A stretch of DNA of 64,000 bases from Parcubacteria group bacterium LiPW_30. Lineage in GTDB: Bacteria > Patescibacteriota > Minisyncoccia > Phycocordibacterales > VMEP01. The position numbers and the translations under genes are program-made. The stretch is taken from the NCBI GenBank assembly GCA_007375595.1, contig VMEP01000001.1:415184-479183 (forward strand), in the 5' to 3' direction. This document shows, piece by piece, positions 22,065-29,874 of this stretch. The stretch's first letter is position 1, and each line of letters starts with the position of its first letter. The notes below the pieces were generated by a model. It was given only the letters and a program-made list of their open reading frames with translations, was not told the origin of the DNA and made no database searches.

Positions 22065-22135
22065 TGCCGGTTCGTCTAATGGTAGGACACCGCCCTTTGA
22101 AGGCGGGTATTGGGGTTCGAGTCCCTGACCGGCAG
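22065..22135 (+). tRNA. tRNA-Gln (TTG)
   Basis: TGCCGGTTCGTCTAATGGTAGGACACCGCCCTTTGAAGGCGGGTATTGGGGTTCGAGTCCCTGACCGGCAG. U1-A72 pair is typical of bacterial tRNA-Gln. Anticodon loop CTTTGAA, discriminator G. Followed by a T-run. Confidence 0.8.
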
Positions 22136-22202
22136 TTTTTGAGCGTAGTTCGAGAAGTGTTGTGTTTATATTAAACTCTAATCTGATATAATTAAGAAAA
22201 TT

Positions 22203-23027
22203 ATGTTAGTTACCAATAAAACAAAAATTCTTTCCCCTGTTAAACTAGCACCATATTTTCAAGAGGATAATTTTGTTCTATACAATAGCGACTCAATTAT
22301 TTTACTGAATCAATTACCAGAAAGTTCAGTAGATATGATATTTGCGGATCCTCCATACAATCTTTCGAATGACGGTTTTAGCGTACATGCTGGGCGAATG
22401 GTAAGTGTTAATAAAGGCGATTGGGATAAAAGTAAAGGATTCCAAGACGATTATGCCTTCCACTATCGTTGGATGGAAGCTTGTAGGCGAGTTCTTAAGC
22501 CAAACGGCACACTTTGGGTAAGCGGTACTTATCACTCAATTTACCAATGTGGACATGCCCTTCAATCACTCAGTTATCATATTTTGAATGATATAAGTTG
22601 GTTTAAACCAAACGCTTCACCGAATTTGAGCTGTAGATTTTTTACGGCAAGCCACGAGACACTTATTTGGGCGAGGAAAGAAAAAAAGGCAAAACATAAT
22701 TTTAACTATGATTTAATGAAAAACGGGGAATGGCCTGAGGATAAATTAAAGAAACCAGGTCTTCAAATGAGATCCGTTTGGTCTATGGGGACTCCTCGCC
22801 CCGAAGAGAAAAAATATGGTAAGCACCCAACACAAAAACCTCTAGATTTGCTCAAAAGAATAATTTTAGCAAGCACAAACAAAGGAGATGTTGTTTTAGA
22901 TCCGTTTACAGGTAGTTCTACTACCGGGATTGCGGCGGTGATGTACGAGAGAAAATTTATTGGAGTAGATCTTGAAAAAAAGTACCTTGATTTATCTGTT
23001 AAAAGATTTAATGATTTAAAAAAATGA
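22203..23027 (+). CDS. DNA methyltransferase, beta class (DPPY motif; N6-adenine or N4-cytosine)
   Basis: Motif IV IFADPPYNL precedes motif I VVLDPFTGSSTTG (the beta-class permutation). HPTQKP is also present. Confidence 0.85.
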   Translation: MLVTNKTKILSPVKLAPYFQEDNFVLYNSDSIILLNQLPESSVDMIFADPPYNLSNDGFSVHAGRMVSVNKGDWDKSKGFQDDYAFHYRWMEACRRVLKPNGTLWVSGTYHSIYQCGHALQSLSYHILNDISWFKPNASPNLSCRFFTASHETLIWARKEKKAKHNFNYDLMKNGEWPEDKLKKPGLQMRSVWSMGTPRPEEKKYGKHPTQKPLDLLKRIILASTNKGDVVLDPFTGSSTTGIAAVMYERKFIGVDLEKKYLDLSVKRFNDLKK

Positions 23028-23548
23028 TTAACAAAGGAAAAGGGGGAGGTAATACAATAACAGGACTTAATTTTGAAAAGGAAAAAGATATTCTTTCTCT
23101 TCTTAAAACTAAGAAAGGATATAGTGTTAAAGGAACAGCTATCTTTTATAACGGGAAGGAAGTTGCGAGGAACTATAAGAAAAATGCTCTATATAAATTT
23201 CTAGAATCTGAGAAGATAGATTACAAGAAAATTCTTTCTAAAAAACTTCTCCCCGATGAAGCTTTATATGTAATTGTTAATAACACCCTATTTATTATAG
23301 AGCTTAAGTTTCAGAAAGTAGCTGGGTCAGTCGATGAAAAATTACAGACATGTGATTTCAAAAGAAAACAGTATGCAAAATTGATGGCACCATTGAATAT
23401 AGAAGTTGAATATATCTATGTTTTAAGCGATTGGTTTAAAAAACCAGAATATAAAGATGTGCGAGATTATATAATTTCCGTAGGATGTCAGTATTATTTT
23501 GATTATCTTCCTCTACAAAAACTTGGGTTGCCTGTTCCACAAGATTAA
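23024..23548 (+). CDS. putative Type II restriction endonuclease (PD-ExK)
   Basis: Start overlaps the MTase stop (ATGA). PD..(E)xK signature LPDEALYVIVNNTLFIIELKFQK. 174 aa, otherwise novel. Confidence 0.5.
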   Translation: MINKGKGGGNTITGLNFEKEKDILSLLKTKKGYSVKGTAIFYNGKEVARNYKKNALYKFLESEKIDYKKILSKKLLPDEALYVIVNNTLFIIELKFQKVAGSVDEKLQTCDFKRKQYAKLMAPLNIEVEYIYVLSDWFKKPEYKDVRDYIISVGCQYYFDYLPLQKLGLPVPQD

Positions 23549-24275: not shown

Positions 24276-24821
24276 TTGTCTATTATGGCAATCAAAAAAA
24301 CATCAGAGATTGGTAGTAAAGTAATCCGCTCTCGATCAAAAGAAGTTGAAAAAATAACTTCTTTGAGAGTTAAGAAAATAATAGTTGATCTCGTGGATAC
24401 TATGAGACATGTGAATTTGGTTGGTATGGCGGCACCCCAAATTGGAATAGGAAGTAGAATTTTTGTTACTGAAATTAGGAAAACAATAACACGAAAAAAT
24501 ATTTCTAAACCTGACCCACTTAAGGTTTTTATCAACCCCGAAATAACTAAGACATCAAAGAAACTTGTTGATGGATATGAGGGTTGCGGAAGCGTCGCCT
24601 CGGGGGGATTATTTGGAATCGTGAGAAGACCAGAAACTGTTTCCGTTCGAGCTTTTGATGAAACAGGTGAAGAATTTGAGTTAGAGACTTCTGGGTTGTT
24701 AGCAAGAATTATTCAACATGAGATTGACCATCTTGATGGAATTTGTTTTATTGATAAGGTTACAGACACTAAAAAATTGTTAGGTCGTCAAGAATATATC
24801 AAAATGGGAAGAAAAAAGTAG
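24276..24821 (+). CDS. def: peptide deformylase
   Basis: All three PDF motifs: GMAAPQIG, EGCGS, HEIDHLDG. Confidence 0.9.
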   Translation: MSIMAIKKTSEIGSKVIRSRSKEVEKITSLRVKKIIVDLVDTMRHVNLVGMAAPQIGIGSRIFVTEIRKTITRKNISKPDPLKVFINPEITKTSKKLVDGYEGCGSVASGGLFGIVRRPETVSVRAFDETGEEFELETSGLLARIIQHEIDHLDGICFIDKVTDTKKLLGRQEYIKMGRKK

Positions 24822-24892: not shown

Positions 24893-25795
24893 ATGGAACT
24901 AAATCTTGGTTACAGAAACAAAATACTTATTTTAGGCGCGGGTGCGTCTAAAGACTATGGGCTACCAATCTGGAAAGAGTTGGATTCTTTGATAAAGGAG
25001 AGACTGAAAGATGGTGGAGAAAATCAATATTCACGCGCAAAGGATGTTTTGGCTTGGCTAGATAAGGTGGGAGAAAAAAACGAATATAAAACTATTGATG
25101 AATGCATTGAAAAGGAATCAGTAACAGGAATCTATCATTCAGATGGAGATAGTGTGGAAAACGATCTATTCTCGTCAGTCAAAGATATCTTCAACGAAGT
25201 TTATAAAGAAAATAACGAAGGTTGGATAACAAGGTTGAGTAATAAAATTTTACATAACTCTGAAAACCGATTGGAAGAGAGAGTGGCTTTCATAAATTAT
25301 AATTACGATAATGTTTTAGAGAAAAACCTCTTAAGATTTGGTCATCTGCCAGGGAAACATTTGCGTCTCAATAATAAACCTAGACTAGACCAGTTATCGT
25401 CGGTGCAGGTACCTGTTTTGTATGCTCATGGGAATCTTTATAAGAAATCTGAGGTACCCTTAGGGTCCCATACGGATAGATATTACAAAACCATGAAGAG
25501 TGGTTTCGTTGGGTATATAGATGTTGTTTCGTGTTATGAAAGCCACAACCATACAGTTAATCACGAGTTAGATGCCGACGAACTTGAAATGTATATTTTA
25601 GGATTGGGCGGGGGTCTTAAATTCAATCTTAGTAAACTTAATATTTCCAAGAAAGTGTCGCAAATTTCTGTGACAATTAGTAATGCTCATGACGATGAAG
25701 AAATTATAAAATTTTTAAGTACAAAATTTAAAGTTCCAGTAGAGAAAATTTTTATATATAGATCTTGTGCTGAGTTAATTGATACATGCTTCTAG
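24893..25795 (+). CDS. SIR2-like (SIR2_2 family) protein, stand-alone; putative NAD+-depleting defense effector
   Basis: N-terminus KILILGAGASKDYGLPIWKELDSLI matches the SIR2_2 signature (lFlGAGvS...GlPsW..L) used by ThsA/DSR-type antiphage proteins. 300 aa, no other domain recognised. Confidence 0.65.
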   Translation: MELNLGYRNKILILGAGASKDYGLPIWKELDSLIKERLKDGGENQYSRAKDVLAWLDKVGEKNEYKTIDECIEKESVTGIYHSDGDSVENDLFSSVKDIFNEVYKENNEGWITRLSNKILHNSENRLEERVAFINYNYDNVLEKNLLRFGHLPGKHLRLNNKPRLDQLSSVQVPVLYAHGNLYKKSEVPLGSHTDRYYKTMKSGFVGYIDVVSCYESHNHTVNHELDADELEMYILGLGGGLKFNLSKLNISKKVSQISVTISNAHDDEEIIKFLSTKFKVPVEKIFIYRSCAELIDTCF

Positions 25796-25897: not shown

Positions 25898-26005
25898 CCA
25901 GTTTTTGAGCTGTTTTCTAGGGGTTATTCGTGCGAGGAATGATAAAGTAGTACTATAAAGCGACAAAGTTGTGTGTTTCGTTTGATAAACTTTTGGAATA
26001 AATTT

Positions 26006-26287
26006 ATGAACAATAAAGAAGCTAAAGCACGAATCAGAATAAACAGTCTACTCCAACAGTCTGGCTGGAGGTTTTTTGATGACGAAAACAGCAAGGCAAA
26101 CATTGCTCTAAATAAACTTTCAAAAAAATCAGTTGATGAATTAGGAAACGATTTTGAAAAAACAAAGAACAATTTTACCGATTTTCTTCTTCTTGATGAA
26201 AAAGGTTTCCCCTATGTTGTGTTTGCTGCAAAATCAAGCGCCGAACTGTTCGAGTTAAAAATAAAATCAAAAATCGATGAATTATGA
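26006..26287 (+). CDS. small HsdR_N-like (type I restriction R-subunit N-terminal nuclease-like) domain protein, catalytic Glu apparently replaced
   Basis: EAKARIRINSLLQQSGW and DFLLLDEKGFPYVVFAAK align to the EcoKI HsdR N-terminal motifs ESRFLIDAQLRKAGW and DYVLFVGLKPIAVVEAK. The ExK glutamate aligns to Ala. Start taken at the ATG at 26006. Confidence 0.5.
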   Translation: MNNKEAKARIRINSLLQQSGWRFFDDENSKANIALNKLSKKSVDELGNDFEKTKNNFTDFLLLDEKGFPYVVFAAKSSAELFELKIKSKIDEL

Positions 26288-26300
26288 GGAGAATAATTAT

Positions 26301-26483
26301 ATGAGCAGTAACATTATCAAACAACATTTAGCAGAGATGGTAAAAGACAAGAAACTGGATGCCGAGTTCATCCAGCTTTTGTCTGGTTCGAACGACAACA
26401 ACGAGGAAGGCAGAGATACTGCTATAAAGATTCTGTTTGCGATAAAAAAACGCTATGTTGAAAGTAAAAAAGATAACTCTTAG
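26301..26483 (+). CDS. small hypothetical protein (60 aa) inside the putative defense operon
   Basis: GAGGAG RBS 9 nt upstream of ATG at 26301. Overlaps the next gene by 29 nt. Helical, charged. Confidence 0.35.
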   Translation: MSSNIIKQHLAEMVKDKKLDAEFIQLLSGSNDNNEEGRDTAIKILFAIKKRYVESKKDNS

Positions 26484-28902
26484 TGGCTTCCGAGGGATTC
26501 TCAAACCTCAAGACCTAATCCTTACAGAAAAAGGAGACTCAAATCCGCACTCACTTGTTTTGTACGGACTCAATAGTTCTGGTAAAACTTCTTTCGTTGA
26601 CGGCATTGAGTGGTTTTTATCCGAAGAGAATAAGGTTGAATGGCTCACGCGTGAAGATGCCGAAGAGAAAGCCTACCCCCATTTAGCAGCCGACTCCAAA
26701 AAGGTTGAGAGCTTTGTAGAGTTGCAGTTCAATGACACAGACAAAAAGTTAGATTCTCTTCGCAAGACATACAGTCACAAAAAGATAACGCAACCCACAC
26801 TATCGTCCGAGAGTGATTTTGAAAACGTTTATAAGGTGTTCGTGATAAAGCCTTATCTTCGTTATCTGGAAGTTATAGATTTCGTTTATAACCACACGGG
26901 GCTAAAGAAGTATCAAAGGCTCGCGAATTGGATGGGATTTGAAAGTGAGCAGGCATTTCAAGAAAAGCTCGCCCTAAAGATACTCCCAGAGCTGAAAAGA
27001 AGAAAAGAAGAGTTATCAAATACCGTCGAAACTCTCGGCAGTCATCTATCGCGACTGACAGGAAGCAGCGACATATCGGAAATAGAGATTTTGAGAGTAA
27101 GTAATGGGATTTTAGCCTTGCATAAAATCGCCGAAAAGAAGAACGTTAGTGAGCTTATGGATTACATTCCAGAGTTTGCAAAGCTCCGTGCTATCTCCTC
27201 TGTAGGAATCACGGTAGATAAACTTACCCAAGCAGAAACCAATATTAGCTTGTTTGCTATAAATAAGACACTTCTTGAATCTCTTGCGGATGCAAAGAAA
27301 AAAGTTGATGACTTTAGTAAAGAACTAAAGAAAATTGAACAGATTAATGTCATCGGACTCTACGATCAGGCTTTAGAGGTTTTGAATAAGCAAACAGAGT
27401 CGGCAACTGTTTGTCCTGTATGCGGCACCAGTTGGAAGAAAGATGAGCTGGTAAAACATATCCAAGACGAACTGGGGTTACTCACAAAGGTAAAAGAAGA
27501 CAAAGAAGCGCTTGAGCTAACAGTTAGTCGACTCAAATCGGCAGTAAGAACTGAAATAACCGCAACAGAGAGACTGGTTTCAAAATACGATGACGTTCAA
27601 AAAATAATTCCAGTTCTTACATACGAAAAGGTAAAATCGTATAAAGATGCTCTGTCCATAATGGAGAGCGGTTGGCTAACTAAACCTCTGGGCAGTAATA
27701 CTGAAATAACACTCACACAGGAACTTCGCGACCAGAGTGAAGAAGAGCAGCAACAAATACTAAAGACCATCACTGCTGAAAAGACGAAGATTCAGCCATC
27801 AGAGAAAGACATCAAGATTGCAGAGGATATTGAAAAACTGACTCAAATACGGACGAAGCTCATAGAAGTCAAAGATGCCGAAGCTGAACGGGAGTTTACG
27901 GAAAAGGAGATTGAAAAGTTCATTGCAGTAAGCAATAAGCTCGTCACTTTGATTCAAGAGAACATCAAGTCTCGATTCAATGAGATTTCCGAGCGCATTG
28001 GCAAATACTTTTCAATTTTGAGGAACGATAAAGATATAAAAAACATCGAGATTGTCTTGAACGAAGAAAAAGGACGTGCGGCGGGGCGTTCAGCAGAGAT
28101 ACAGCTCCACTACTACGATGTGACCGTAAAGCCCGCCTATAAAGTTTTGAGTGAGTCATTGTTAAACAGTTTGGGGTTGGCGGTGTATTTCACCTGCATC
28201 AAGCAGTTCAATCAGGACTGCAAGTTTATAGTGCTTGACGATATAATGAACAGCCTCGACATAGATAAAAGAGACACACTACTTGATTTGATTGAGCAGG
28301 AGTTCGGTGATTATCAGGTTATTCTTTTCACACACGATTATTATTGGTTTCAAAAGATATTGAGACGATTTCCAAAATGGATACGAAAGAAAATAAAAAG
28401 TTGGGGCTACGAAACAGGCGCCCTTATTGATGTTGCTGCAACAACTCAAGGAGAGATTGAGGAATGTCTGGCGGATGCAACCAAGATTGAGGATGCTGGC
28501 TGGAAACTCGGAAGATATGTTGAGAGCACGCTAAACGAGTTTTGCGAGAATCTGTGGGCAAAAGTTCGCTACCGCTATACAAAGAACGACCCGCCCGCAA
28601 TGGAAGAGCTATTTGATGCACTGTGCGGGCGCCTAAAAGACAAGCTGAACGAACACCCAGTAGTAAAACAAATACAGGAGGCTAAAAAATATGAACCTAT
28701 ACTGCGCAATTTTGTGTCTCACGCAAGAACAAATAGTGGCTCTACGGTTTCGCCTCAAGAGATAAAACGAGCAGCGAAAGAATGGTTCAAACTTGAGAGT
28801 CAACTTTGGTGTAACGACTGTAGTCAATTCGTTGAATATCATAAAACCAAATCGTCAATCGAATGTCACTGCGGGAAGTTGAAACTGGAGAAAGTAAAAT
28901 GA
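26455..28902 (+). CDS. Rad50/SbcC/RloC-like ABC ATPase with coiled-coil zinc hook and C-terminal extra domain
   Basis: N-terminal ITLSGFRGI..LYGLNSSGKTSFVDGIEW (Walker A). Roughly 500 aa of coiled coil containing a CxxC hook (TVCPVCGTSW, ~res 320). Walker B/D-loop FIVLDDIMNSLD. H-loop ILFTHD. Then a ~190-aa C-terminal domain ending in a C-x2-C..C-x-C ribbon. Confidence 0.8.
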   Translation: MLKVKKITLSGFRGILKPQDLILTEKGDSNPHSLVLYGLNSSGKTSFVDGIEWFLSEENKVEWLTREDAEEKAYPHLAADSKKVESFVELQFNDTDKKLDSLRKTYSHKKITQPTLSSESDFENVYKVFVIKPYLRYLEVIDFVYNHTGLKKYQRLANWMGFESEQAFQEKLALKILPELKRRKEELSNTVETLGSHLSRLTGSSDISEIEILRVSNGILALHKIAEKKNVSELMDYIPEFAKLRAISSVGITVDKLTQAETNISLFAINKTLLESLADAKKKVDDFSKELKKIEQINVIGLYDQALEVLNKQTESATVCPVCGTSWKKDELVKHIQDELGLLTKVKEDKEALELTVSRLKSAVRTEITATERLVSKYDDVQKIIPVLTYEKVKSYKDALSIMESGWLTKPLGSNTEITLTQELRDQSEEEQQQILKTITAEKTKIQPSEKDIKIAEDIEKLTQIRTKLIEVKDAEAEREFTEKEIEKFIAVSNKLVTLIQENIKSRFNEISERIGKYFSILRNDKDIKNIEIVLNEEKGRAAGRSAEIQLHYYDVTVKPAYKVLSESLLNSLGLAVYFTCIKQFNQDCKFIVLDDIMNSLDIDKRDTLLDLIEQEFGDYQVILFTHDYYWFQKILRRFPKWIRKKIKSWGYETGALIDVAATTQGEIEECLADATKIEDAGWKLGRYVESTLNEFCENLWAKVRYRYTKNDPPAMEELFDALCGRLKDKLNEHPVVKQIQEAKKYEPILRNFVSHARTNSGSTVSPQEIKRAAKEWFKLESQLWCNDCSQFVEYHKTKSSIECHCGKLKLEKVK

Positions 28903-29378
28903 CCTGGTATCAAAAGACGTTAAAGAAATACGGGAAAGAAATCCTGACAGGGGCAATCTTTTCTGTTATCTGTACACTCGCATTCCTACTCTGGATTTAT
29001 GGAATGGGTAAGACGTTCACATGGACAGATATCAGTCCAATAGATCCGCCTTCAATCTTTGTCAGATTTCTCTATAGCGCTCTTACATTTGTCACCTTAG
29101 GGCGAATTTTGTATGTCACAGGCTTTTACAAAGCCTTGTATCAAATCATTGGCGATTGGCAGTCATTCAAGGAGGCGAAAGTAATTATTTGGTTATTACT
29201 TATGGGCGCTATGTTCTTCGTGATTGTTCCTACTATCGTAGATATACTCAATGGCATTCTCTCAGTCGGATATAACTTGTTCGCTTTGATACTTTACGCA
29301 TTTCCACCAGTAGGCGTCTCATTAATCTTTTTTGTATTTTACTTCTATTTCAAAAGGAAACTCCGACCGATATCCTAA
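28899..29378 (+). CDS. 4-TM membrane protein translationally coupled to the ABC ATPase
   Basis: ATG overlaps the ATPase TGA (ATGA). Four predicted TM helices. No known domain. Confidence 0.6.
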   Translation: MTWYQKTLKKYGKEILTGAIFSVICTLAFLLWIYGMGKTFTWTDISPIDPPSIFVRFLYSALTFVTLGRILYVTGFYKALYQIIGDWQSFKEAKVIIWLLLMGAMFFVIVPTIVDILNGILSVGYNLFALILYAFPPVGVSLIFFVFYFYFKRKLRPIS

Positions 29379-29412
29379 GGGGACTGTTATTTTTATCACT
29401 TTTTATAAAACT

Positions 29413-29874
29413 ATGAAATATTTTGCTTACGGATCAAATATGCTGCAGGGTCGTCTTGAAGACCAAAAGAATGTTCGAGACGAAAGCATTGGCTCGGTTC
29501 AGGACATAGGAACAGCTAGTCTGCCAGATTATCGATTGGTTTTTAATAAAATCGGTAAGAAGGATGGAATAAGTGGTAAGGCGAATATAGTTCAAGAGCA
29601 AGGCGCAGAGACACTAGGAGTTGTGTATGAATTGTCCAATGAGCAAATCAATCTTTTGGATAGTATTGAGGGAAAGGGCTACAAAAGAATTCCAGTTGGT
29701 ATTAATTTCAATGGCGAACAGCTTGAGATTGATACTTATGTTGCTCAAGCTAATAGTGTTCAAGAAGGACTATCACCAACAAGAGAGTATTTGAACTTTG
29801 TAATTCAAGGCGCTGTAATTCATGGCTTTCCAGAAGCGTACGTTTCGTTCCTCAGATCTATCAAAGTTCAATAA
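29413..29874 (+). CDS. gamma-glutamyl cyclotransferase-like (AIG2/GGCT fold) protein
   Basis: MKYFAYGSNM..RL N-terminal signature (YGSN motif) and catalytic Glu candidate (GVVYEL). 35 nt downstream of the membrane-protein gene. Confidence 0.65.
   Translation: MKYFAYGSNMLQGRLEDQKNVRDESIGSVQDIGTASLPDYRLVFNKIGKKDGISGKANIVQEQGAETLGVVYELSNEQINLLDSIEGKGYKRIPVGINFNGEQLEIDTYVAQANSVQEGLSPTREYLNFVIQGAVIHGFPEAYVSFLRSIKVQ

What the first reader, a model, noticed from the sequence alone, without database searches (positions are those of the whole stretch)
25973..29874. Candidate undescribed defense module: degenerate HsdR_N-like protein + 60-aa protein + RloC/Rad50-like ABC ATPase with zinc hook + coupled 4-TM protein (+ GGCT-like enzyme)
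Five co-oriented, tightly packed genes sit inside an accessory island. Gene C overlaps gene B by 29 nt, and gene D is ATGA-coupled to gene C. The 815-aa ATPase has the unusual architecture Walker A - long coiled coil with a central CxxC hook - Walker B/H-loop - ~190-aa C-terminal domain ending in a Cys ribbon. This layout is characteristic of the anticodon nuclease RloC ('restriction-linked ORF'), and more loosely of Rad50/SbcC and Lamassu/PARIS-type sensors. Consistent with 'restriction-linked', the first gene encodes an HsdR N-terminal nuclease-like domain whose ExK glutamate appears replaced by Ala. In place of any known partner the ATPase is coupled to a small 4-TM protein, a candidate membrane-disrupting effector, and is followed by a GGCT/AIG2-fold enzyme. 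I do not recognise this five-gene combination as a described system.
Basis: partly seen in the sequence, partly recalled or inferred. Interest (0 to 1): 0.85.

Follow-up and report, generated by a model that had tools for sequence, protein, structure and literature searches.

The report
Restriction-linked zinc-hook ATPase–HEPN gene pair
The five-gene "module" is really a conserved two-gene cassette: a 60-aa protein plus a Rad50/SMC-like zinc-hook ATPase fused to a probable HEPN RNase, a kind of unit that usually rides inside restriction-modification operons, and here it sits beside the deletion scar of a lost type I restriction system and two unrelated neighbour genes.

Summary
The five genes are not one system.

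- **Gene A** is a deletion scar. It joins the first ~77 codons of a type I hsdR to the last ~13 codons of an hsdM-S gene. About 4.75 kb present in an 81%-identical relative is missing.
- **Genes B and C are the conserved core.** A B-like ORF abuts the ATPase start in 51 of 52 assessable, de-duplicated loci, usually with the same 29-nt overlap.
- **Gene D (membrane protein)** follows C only in the closest relative. Its ~80%-identical homologues occur without any such ATPase.
- **Gene E (GGCT)** never co-occurs with B-C.

B-C is co-oriented with and abuts type I, ISP, IIG, IIS or III restriction genes in 23 of 54 contexts. A restriction gene lies within 4 kb in 33 of 54.

Best reading: an uncharacterised PrrC/RloC-like second-line RNase module, orphaned here. 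It is a new variant of a known kind, of moderate interest.

The parts
26006..26287 (+). Gene A: a 93-aa ORF that is the deletion scar of a type I restriction system, not a functional partner. 26015-26221 is the hsdR 5' end and 26247-26287 is the hsdM-S 3' end.
   Evidence: blastn: window 26015-26221 matches L001 830-1045, and window 26247-28898 matches L001 5793-8444, so ~4.75 kb is absent. Residues 4-77 are 74% identical to HsdR residues 6-82 of L001, with LEAKS changed to FAAKS. The L001 genes are HSDR_N+ResIII (841 aa) and N6_Mtase+Methylase_S (833 aa).
26301..26483 (+). Gene B: the conserved 60-aa partner protein. Its last 29 nt overlap the start of C. No Pfam, NCBIfam or PADLOC family matches it.
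   Evidence: GAGGAG lies 8 nt upstream of the ATG. A B-like ORF abuts the ATPase in 51 of 52 assessable clusters. The alignment keeps register down to the 27%-identity archaeal clade. No significant family hit.
26455..28902 (+). Gene C: an 815-aa Rad50/SMC/LmuB-like ABC ATPase with a zinc hook, a C-terminal HEPN-like domain and a Zn ribbon.
   Evidence: PADLOC LmuB 9e-25 over residues 33-647; Pfam SMC_N and AAA_21. AF2 model pLDDT 84.9. Foldseek: Rad50 5.5e-11, SMC heads, LmuB 1.7e-8.
26455..26934 (+). C residues 1-160: N-terminal half of the ABC head, with Walker A G38-x-N40-x2-G43-K44-T-S46.
   Evidence: Invariant columns in alignments A1 and A3. Strand/helix pattern in the model.
26941..28020 (+). 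C residues 163-522: antiparallel coiled-coil arms with the hook hairpin at residues 317-328 (window 27403-27438).
   Evidence: Helices 163-311 and 329-522 flank a beta hairpin at 317-328. C320, P321 and C323 are invariant. CPxC is present in 76 of 76 full-length superfamily representatives. The profile weakly hits Rad50 hook structures.
28036..28434 (+). C residues 528-660: C-terminal half of the ABC head, with signature PAYKVLSES, Walker B FIVLDD and H-loop THD.
   Evidence: Invariant columns; model.
28444..28806 (+). C residues 664-784: HEPN-like helical domain. The R751-N752-x3-H756 motif lies at window 28705-28722.
28810..28884 (+). C residues 786-810: C-terminal Cys ribbon, C786-x2-C789...C804-x-C806.
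   Evidence: C786, C789 and C804 are invariant. Short beta strands in the models. Weak Zn_ribbon_19 hit.

Best explanation
The functional unit is a two-gene operon, B (26301-26483) plus C (26455-28902). C is a Rad50/SMC/LmuB-type ABC ATPase. Its coiled-coil arms end in a CPxC zinc hook. Its C-terminus carries a HEPN-like domain with an intact R-N-x3-H site, followed by a zinc ribbon. B is an obligate 60-aa helical partner whose translation is coupled to that of C.

This cassette normally sits at the 3' end of, or inside, restriction-modification operons of many types. In this genome it was attached to a type I system. Nearly all of hsdR and hsdM-S was then lost in a single ~4.75-kb deletion. 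Gene A is what remains, and the B-C cassette is intact and orphaned. D and E are unrelated neighbours.

Inferred mechanism, by analogy with PrrC and RloC:
1. The ATPase/hook part senses a DNA-level signal of infection or restriction failure, such as DNA ends or an altered restriction complex.
2. This releases the HEPN RNase, which cuts tRNA or other RNA and shuts down translation. That gives a second-line, abortive defence.
3. B acts as an inhibitor or antitoxin, or as a LmuC-like specificity adaptor.

Shown: gene structure, conservation, the deletion scar, domain architecture and restriction linkage. Inferred: RNase activity, the trigger, and the role of B.
For: - **B-C co-conservation.** A B-like ORF is found directly upstream of C, usually with a 29-nt overlap, in 51 of 52 assessable clusters after 95% de-duplication. 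This covers ATPase identities from 89% down to 26%. A small upstream ORF also persists in 23-25%-identical plasmid copies in cultured Alphaproteobacteria.
- **The scar.**, with L001 annotated as type I HsdR plus HsdM-S.
- **Restriction linkage.** Neighbours include type I (L001, L038, L089, L098), type ISP (L006, L008, L029, L044-L048, L062), IIG (L010, L028, L070), AlwI IIS plus methyltransferases (L004, L076), type III (L017, L021, L035, L043) and EcoRI-MTase plus GmrSD (L020, L050). A co-oriented restriction gene lies within 700 nt in 23 of 54 contexts, and any restriction gene within 4 kb in 33 of 54.
- **Architecture.** AF2 full-length model pLDDT 84.9. Foldseek matches to Rad50, SMC and LmuB. 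PADLOC LmuB 9e-25.
- **Distant relation to RloC-like proteins.** hhalign against PF13166-positive proteins carrying an R-x3-E...(S/T)H pattern gives probability 99.5% over 665 columns. The CPVCG hooks align, and the first C-terminal helix aligns.
- **Literature.** ABC-HEPN fusions (PrrC, RloC and others) are restriction-linked abortive RNases (PMC3710099, PMC2610378).
Against: - HEPN is supported only by fold and motif. No Pfam, PADLOC or NCBIfam HEPN profile hits the domain.
- The sequence profile against PDB finds nothing. Foldseek is not significant, best E 0.19.
- The R...H loop has low model confidence: pLDDT is below 50 at residues 755-760.
- A sister clade has lost the Arg of the motif, so catalysis may not be universal.
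- 21 of 54 contexts show no recognised restriction gene, and the plasmid copies stand alone. Restriction linkage is therefore frequent but not obligate.
- No experiment exists for any member. The function of B is unknown.
Confidence: 0.6

Rival explanations
1. One reading: A-B-C-D-E form one five-gene defence system. A is a degenerate HsdR_N partner, the 4-TM protein D is a membrane-disrupting effector coupled to the ATPase, and the GGCT enzyme E is an accessory.
For: The genes are co-oriented and tightly packed. C and D share ATGA. D also follows C in the closest relative, L024/25, at 54% identity.
Against: A is a deletion scar. D is absent after C in L001 (81% identity) and in every other locus examined. 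D homologues of ~80% identity stand alone among Dsb genes or follow a recombinase plus SNF2 helicase, and only the D gene itself is shared at the DNA level. E is found in no related locus.
Confidence: 0.04
2. B-C is an accessory sensor subunit of the adjacent restriction enzymes, Lamassu- or SbcC-like. It detects DNA ends and modulates the restriction nuclease. The C-terminal helical domain is a non-catalytic docking or regulatory domain, not an RNase.
For: The best PADLOC hit is LmuB. Foldseek hits LmuB and Rad50. B occupies the position that LmuC or the SbcD C-terminal domain takes before LmuB or SbcC (PMC12663957). A few members give weak Pfam hits to ABC-3C CTD1. The sister clade lacks the Arg. 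The cassette is operonic with restriction genes.
Against: R-N-x3-H is invariant in this clade, which argues for a catalytic site. The cassette accompanies mechanistically unrelated restriction types and also occurs alone on plasmids. That fits an autonomous module better than a dedicated subunit.
Confidence: 0.17
3. B-C is mainly a toxin-antitoxin or addiction cassette, with B the antitoxin and C the toxin. It stabilises restriction cassettes and mobile elements rather than sensing phage.
For: A small upstream gene overlapping a large toxin-like gene is the classic antitoxin-first layout. Copies lie on plasmids next to rep and transposon genes. Integrases or recombinases are often nearby. The cassette has been retained intact here after loss of the restriction system.
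Against: An 815-aa ATPase with a hook is far more elaborate than needed for a simple toxin. No test of B neutralising C exists. This reading overlaps with, and is not exclusive of, the abortive-defence model.
Confidence: 0.15
4. C is a housekeeping DNA-repair SMC-like protein (SbcC, Rad50 or RecN).
For: The top structural matches are Rad50 and SMC heads. The sequence profile hits SMC at 1.5e-6.
Against: No Mre11/SbcD-type partner is found in any neighbourhood. Distribution is patchy across Patescibacteria, Omnitrophota, Desulfobacterota, Spirochaetota and archaea. It sits in restriction and defence islands. It has an extra HEPN-like domain. NCBIfam RecF and ASRP scores are far below their cut-offs.
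Confidence: 0.03

Closest known systems
RloC (zinc-hook ABC ATPase plus C-terminal anticodon nuclease; Davidov & Kaufmann 2008, PMC2610378)
   Same: About 800 aa. Walker A, then a coiled coil with a central CX2C hook, then signature, Walker B and H-loop, then a C-terminal HEPN-class domain with Ser-His. It is sometimes inserted in type I or III restriction loci. hhalign against PF13166-positive RloC-like proteins gives 99.5% probability with the hooks aligned.
   Different: No Pfam AAA_13 hit. The R-x3-E-x36-52-H triad is replaced by N694-x3-E698, then 57 residues, then H756, plus a classical R751-N752-x3-H756 motif. It has an extra C-terminal Cys ribbon. It has an obligate 60-aa upstream partner, which is not reported for RloC. 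It is far more often restriction-embedded: RloC 8 of 72, versus 23-33 of 54 here.
PrrC (anticodon nuclease inside the EcoprrI type Ic hsd locus)
   Same: An ABC ATPase plus HEPN RNase encoded inside a restriction-modification operon. Some relatives (L089, L098) even show the order hsdM-hsdS-B-C, as with prrC after hsdS. The PrrC second-line defence logic is the model for the mechanism proposed here.
   Different: PrrC is about 400 aa with no coiled coil, hook or Zn ribbon, and it is tied to type Ic systems only. This cassette accompanies types I, ISP, IIG, IIS and III.
Lamassu / ABC-3C (LmuA effector, LmuC, LmuB SMC-like ATPase)
   Same: The best PADLOC profile is LmuB (9e-25). There is a structural match to LmuB 9hqx_B. 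A small gene immediately precedes the ATPase, as LmuC precedes LmuB (PMC12663957). Long LmuB proteins also carry CxxC.
   Different: No separate LmuA gene. The putative effector is fused in cis to the ATPase C-terminus. B is only 60 aa with no detectable similarity to LmuC. HEPN is not among the LmuA effector types named in the text I read (Cap4, Mrr, protease, Sir2).
Other ABC-HEPN fusions (APECO1_4465 and ERFG_01251 families; Anantharaman et al. 2013, PMC3710099)
   Same: An ABC ATPase with a C-terminal HEPN domain. ERFG_01251 is described as having a 'classical' Rx4-6H HEPN. Both are defence-island associated.
   Different: They are described as prophage- or CRISPR-linked, and ERFG_01251 has an N-terminal HEPN/Toprim-NTD1 domain. 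No zinc-hook coiled coil, Zn ribbon or small partner is reported. I had no sequences for either family, so direct comparison was not possible.

Membership tests
RloC | ABC ATPase motifs (Walker A, signature, Walker B/D-loop, switch His) | tested here: met
   Invariant G38-N40-G43-K44-S46, PAYKxLSES, LDD and THD.
RloC | Coiled-coil insert with a central CX2C zinc hook | tested here: met
   Helices 163-311 and 329-522 flank a hairpin carrying invariant C320-P-x-C323. The CPVCG motifs align with those of PF13166-positive proteins.
RloC | C-terminal catalytic triad Arg-x3-Glu-x36-52-His (PMC2610378) | tested here: not met
   The aligned positions are N694-x3-E698, and H756 lies 57 residues later. 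The catalytic-looking Arg is R751, in an R-N-x3-H motif.
RloC | Match to Pfam AAA_13 (PF13166), the model that hits the RloC-like proteins found here | tested here: not met
   No AAA_13 hit at E<=0.1 for the window protein. Only sub-threshold hits in distant superfamily members, best 30.7 bits against a cut-off of 36.
RloC | tRNA anticodon cleavage with wobble-nucleotide excision | not testable with these tools
   Requires biochemistry.
PrrC | Gene embedded in a type I hsd operon | tested here: inconclusive
   True for relatives (L001, L038, L089, L098). In the window only the hsd scar remains. Many relatives sit in other restriction types instead.
PrrC | Compact ~400-aa ABC-HEPN protein without a coiled-coil insert | tested here: not met
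   815 aa with a ~360-residue coiled coil and hook.
Lamassu (LmuB) | SMC-like LmuB ATPase | tested here: met
   PADLOC LmuB PDLC03859, E 9.2e-25, residues 33-647. Foldseek to LmuB 9hqx_B, 1.7e-8. The same profile also hits unrelated-looking ABC relatives equally well, so it is not specific.
Lamassu (LmuB) | Separate LmuA effector gene with a C-terminal docking domain in the operon | tested here: not met
   No conserved third gene was found. Only B and C cluster across loci. The nearby SIR2-like gene is not conserved with B-C.
Lamassu (LmuB) | LmuC gene preceding LmuB | tested here: inconclusive
   B is in that position. It is only 60 aa and matches no profile.
HEPN superfamily | Four-helix up-down bundle fold | tested here: met
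HEPN superfamily | Rx4-6H motif with a polar residue after the Arg | tested here: met
   R751-N752-F-V-S-H756. R and H are invariant in 59 sequences. The motif is present in about 50 of 76 wider representatives.
HEPN superfamily | Sequence-profile match to a described HEPN family | tested here: not met
   No Pfam HEPN model hits. Only DUF4145 at 0.048 in 2 of 39 members. The PDB profile search is empty.
Rad50/SbcC housekeeping repair | Adjacent Mre11/SbcD nuclease partner and core-genome distribution | tested here: not met
   No such neighbour in about 80 clusters. Phyletic spread is patchy.
Type I HsdR (gene A) | Full-length protein with PD-(D/E)xK nuclease plus SF2 helicase domains | tested here: not met
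   Only residues 4-77 align, to HsdR residues 6-82 of an 841-aa homologue. The catalytic Glu is changed to Ala. The helicase part is deleted.

The most novel reading that the evidence does not exclude
B-C represents a large, so far unnamed family: 514 clusters at 50% identity share the C-terminal domain, and almost all full-length members are ~800 aa with the same layout. On this reading it is a generalised 'restriction guardian'. A zinc-hook SMC-like sensor is fused in cis to a HEPN RNase and controlled by an obligate 60-aa partner. It plugs into type I, ISP, IIG, IIS and III restriction operons in candidate-phyla bacteria, other bacteria and archaea. It fires when restriction fails or when aberrant DNA ends appear. 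That would extend the PrrC principle from one type Ic system to restriction systems in general, through a Lamassu/Rad50-like sensing mechanism.
Probability: 0.35. Interest if true: 0.7.

Novelty: new variant of a known kind. Interest (0 to 1): 0.45.

Why it matters
If the inference holds, this is an uncharacterised and fairly large branch of the ABC-ATPase/HEPN abortive-defence theme. It combines features of RloC (hook plus HEPN in one chain), PrrC (embedding in restriction operons) and Lamassu (an SMC-like sensor preceded by a small gene).

It accompanies at least five mechanistically different restriction types. That makes it a good system for asking how a second-line RNase is coupled to first-line DNA restriction without a dedicated protein-protein interface.

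It also adds a candidate defence system for Patescibacteria, whose immune repertoires are poorly known. Distant copies on plasmids of cultured Alphaproteobacteria (Brucella anthropi, Aliiroseovarius, Phaeobacter) and haloarchaea make it experimentally tractable.

For this window specifically, the result is a correction. The 'five-gene system' is a two-gene cassette, a pseudogene scar and two bystanders.

Tried and rejected
- **D as a coupled membrane effector: rejected.** It is conserved after C only in L024/25. Its ~80%-identical homologues stand alone or follow other genes.
- **E (GGCT) as part of the system: rejected.** tblastn finds it in none of the related loci then held, L001-L027.
- **The upstream SIR2/AbiH-like gene (24893-25795) as a Lamassu LmuA: rejected.** The hits are weak. 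It is not found near B-C elsewhere. The now-deleted hsd genes originally separated it from B.
- **B as an hsdR fragment: rejected**.
- **Sequence searches of the C-terminal domain** against Pfam, NCBIfam, PADLOC and PDB gave nothing significant.
- **phmmer of C against PDB** gave only a marginal SMC hit.
- **The promoter/terminator scan** gave nothing above shuffled expectation.
- **tblastn against the phage collection** gave no match.
- **The afdb50 fold library** was unavailable.
- **The Krishnan et al. 2020 ABC-ATPase classification paper** is not held in the library. I could not check whether this clade is named there.
- **Literature searches** for a HEPN/zinc-hook/Rad50-like defence protein found no description of this family.
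- **Synteny with L003** beyond the peptide deformylase gene was not found.

Full report
**1. Observation**

The five co-oriented ORFs exist as described.
- A: 25973/26006-26287.
- B: 26301-26483.
- C: 26455-28902.
- D: 28899-29378.
- E: 29413-29874.

B and C overlap by 29 nt. The C stop and D start form ATGA. E begins 34 nt after D. B has a GAGGAG Shine-Dalgarno sequence 8 nt upstream of its ATG.

C carries Walker A, a C320-P-V-C323 hook, the PAYKVLSES signature, Walker B, the THD H-loop and a terminal Cys ribbon. E matches the GGCT/AIG2 Pfam families at about 1e-12. The window comes from Parcubacteria group bacterium LiPW_30; a public protein is 100% identical to C.

**2. Which genes belong together**

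The ATPase has more than 110 full-length homologues at 27-89% identity, all about 810-830 aa. They come from Patescibacteria, Omnitrophota and archaea and from Thermodesulfobacteriota, Spirochaetota and others.

I collected about 100 loci carrying a homologue. After merging ATPases at least 95% identical, 80 clusters remained.

*Gene B.* A B-like ORF lies directly upstream of C in 51 of 52 assessable clusters. In most, the 29-nt overlap is the same. The B alignment keeps register down to the 27%-identity archaeal clade. Plasmid copies at 23-25% identity in Brucella anthropi and Aliiroseovarius still have a 71-73-aa ORF overlapping the ATPase start.

*Gene A.* It has a homologue in only one of the 16 genome-derived loci searched. 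That homologue is an 841-aa HSDR_N+ResIII protein in L001, followed by an 833-aa N6_Mtase+Methylase_S fusion, then B and C.
- At the DNA level, window 26015-26221 matches L001 830-1045.
- Window 26247-28898 matches L001 5793-8444.
- So about 4.75 kb of hsdR and hsdM-S is missing between two points 25 nt apart in the window.
- Residues 4-77 of A are 74% identical to HsdR residues 6-82. The catalytic LEAKS has decayed to FAAKS.

A is therefore a deletion scar.

*Gene D.* It follows C only in the closest relative, L024/25 (ATPase 89% identical, D 54% identical). It is absent from L001 and from all other loci. D has 45 homologues of 54-86% identity.
- One at 81% identity sits behind a serine recombinase and an SNF2 helicase, with no B-C.
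- One at 80% identity stands alone among DsbA/DsbB genes.
- Only the D gene itself (28897-29398) is shared at the DNA level.

*Gene E.* It is found in none of the 27 related loci searched for it.

The unit is therefore B plus C.

**3. Anatomy of C**

The full-length AF2 model has pLDDT 84.9 and gives this layout:

| Residues | Element |
|---|---|
| 1-160 | N-terminal half of the ABC head |
| 163-311 | coiled-coil arm |
| 317-328 | hairpin carrying the two hook cysteines |
| 329-522 | return arm |
| 528-660 | C-terminal half of the ABC head |
| 664-784 | helical domain |
| 786-810 | small beta ribbon with the terminal cysteines |

Foldseek against PDB returns Rad50 (5.5e-11), SMC, cohesin and condensin heads, Lamassu LmuB 9hqx_B (1.7e-8), MukB, JetC, SbcC and RecN. 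PADLOC's best profile is LmuB, E 9e-25 over residues 33-647. The same profile hits distant ABC relatives equally well, so it marks a broad SMC-like class rather than Lamassu membership.

*The C-terminal domain.*
- Modelled alone it has pLDDT 77.
- Foldseek ranks HEPN structures first but without significance.
- No sequence profile in Pfam, NCBIfam, PADLOC or PDB recognises it.
- R751 and H756 are invariant. N752 and E690 are invariant in the 21-sequence alignment and at least 90% conserved in the 59-sequence one. These residues form R-N-x3-H plus an acidic residue in the first helix, as in catalytic HEPN domains (motif definition in PMC3710099).

*How widespread the domain is.* A profile of this domain finds 514 representative clusters at 50% identity. 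Nearly all full-length hits are 785-850 aa with the domain at the C-terminus. Of 76 such proteins, 76 have CPxC, 73 have the Walker A motif, and about 50 have RN-x3-H. A sister clade, which includes the plasmid copies, has xN[IL]xSHDN instead. It has lost the Arg and kept the Asn and His.

**4. Genomic context**

B-C is repeatedly the last gene pair of a restriction-modification operon, or embedded in one. The intergenic gaps are a few nucleotides.
- Type I (L001, L038, L055, L089, L098).
- Split type ISP (L006, L008, L029, L044-L048, L054, L056, L060, L062, L065).
- Type IIG MmeI/Eco57I-like (L007, L010, L028, L067, L070).
- AlwI plus Dam or N4/N6 methyltransferases (L004, L051, L076).
- Type III Mod-Res (L017, L021, L035, L043).
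- EcoRI-methylase plus GmrSD (L020, L050).
- An N6_N4 methyltransferase in the archaeal locus L022.

My reference-based detection gives a lower bound. On that count, 23 of 54 assessable clusters have a co-oriented restriction gene within 700 nt, and 33 of 54 have one within 4 kb. I did not compute a matched random-gene control. That these rates exceed background rests on my general knowledge that restriction genes are a small percentage of prokaryotic genes. Other neighbours are also defence or mobility genes: OLD-like ATPase, pPIWI-associated nuclease, reverse transcriptase, integrases and recombinases.

**5. Mechanism**

*Shown:* an intact, conserved, translationally coupled B-C operon; an SMC/Rad50-like ATPase with a hook; a HEPN-like domain with an intact Rx4H site; frequent restriction embedding; and loss of the type I partner in this genome.

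*Inferred:* the mechanism follows PrrC and RloC, where an ABC ATPase holds a HEPN anticodon nuclease in check until restriction is compromised or DNA is damaged (PMC3710099, PMC2610378). It also draws on Lamassu, where LmuB senses DNA ends (PMC12663957). On this view, C senses a DNA-level signal through its heads and hook and then unleashes its RNase to stop translation. B is either an inhibitor or antitoxin, or a LmuC-like adaptor.

*Confidence:* about 0.9 for the genomic and structural description, and about 0.5 for the RNase/abortive mechanism.

**6. Comparison with known families**

The closest family by architecture is RloC. hhalign between this family and PF13166-positive proteins that carry R-x3-E...(S/T)H gives 99.5% probability over 665 columns. 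The CPVCG hooks align, and the first helix of the C-terminal domain aligns.

The window protein nevertheless fails RloC's own criteria.
- It has no AAA_13 hit.
- The triad positions read N694-x3-E698, then 57 residues, then H756, with the Arg supplied by a classical Rx4H motif.
- It also adds a Zn ribbon and an obligate partner gene.

PrrC shares the restriction embedding but not the size or the hook. Lamassu shares the ATPase class and the small preceding gene, but has a separate LmuA effector.

I found no paper describing this family. Public annotations read 'AAA family ATPase' or 'hypothetical protein'. I could not consult Krishnan et al. 2020.

**7. Verdict**

The RloC-like, restriction-linked ATPase is right. 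The five-gene system, the membrane effector and the GGCT role are wrong.
- The real feature is a new variant of the known ABC-HEPN restriction-linked defence theme.
- Interest is moderate, 0.45.

Noticed in passing
window 24893-25795 (+): A 300-aa protein with weak SIR2/AbiH-like hits (Pfam AbiH 3.8e-4, SIR2_2 3.9e-3; PADLOC SIR2 6e-6). It may be a separate stand-alone defence gene. It is not conserved next to B-C elsewhere.
   Followed up: partly
window 22065-23548 (+): A tRNA (22065-22135) is followed by an N4/N6 DNA methyltransferase (22203-27, Pfam 2.5e-59). That gene overlaps by 4 nt a 174-aa protein with a weak PDDEXK_11 hit. This is probably a type II restriction-modification pair at a tRNA, at the start of a low-GC stretch (GC 0.31-0.37 over 23-26 kb).
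   Followed up: no
window 28899-29378 (+); L024, L031-L034, L115-L118: The small multi-TM protein D is well conserved in related Patescibacteria (45 homologues, most 65-86% identical). Different cargo ends right at its start codon: B-C here and in L024; a recombinase plus SNF2 helicase in L031-34; nothing in L115. Its upstream side looks like a recurrent insertion point.
   Followed up: partly
L007, L067, L071, L081, L083, L086 (after C); L028 (before B): A PDDEXK_1/Cas4-like nuclease of about 225-255 aa recurs directly next to B-C in one sub-clade. It may be a lineage-specific third component, or part of the adjacent IIG/ISP restriction system.
   Followed up: no
L011 8481-9143; L017/L018 10485-11117: A 210-220-aa protein with no Pfam or PADLOC match lies directly downstream of C in two ATPase sub-clades that are only about 50% identical. 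The two copies share a region of clear sequence similarity near the N-terminus.
   Followed up: no
P0237-P0306; plasmid loci L119 7001-9400 and L120 4417-6813: A sister clade of the ATPase family has xN[IL]xSHDN instead of R-N-x3-H: the Arg is lost and the Asn and His are kept. It still has the CPxC hook, the Zn ribbon and a 71-73-aa upstream ORF. It occurs on plasmids of cultured Alphaproteobacteria and haloarchaea.
   Followed up: partly
window 24276-24821 (+): A peptide deformylase gene (NCBIfam 9.5e-43) sits inside the otherwise accessory-looking stretch, between the type II restriction pair and the SIR2-like gene. L003 also has a deformylase gene about 2 kb upstream of its B-C copy.
   Followed up: partly
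L089/L090, L091/L098: In the most distant clade (26-29% identity) the gene order is hsdM-hsdS-(small ORF)-C. This mirrors the position of prrC after hsdS in the E. coli prr locus.
   Followed up: no
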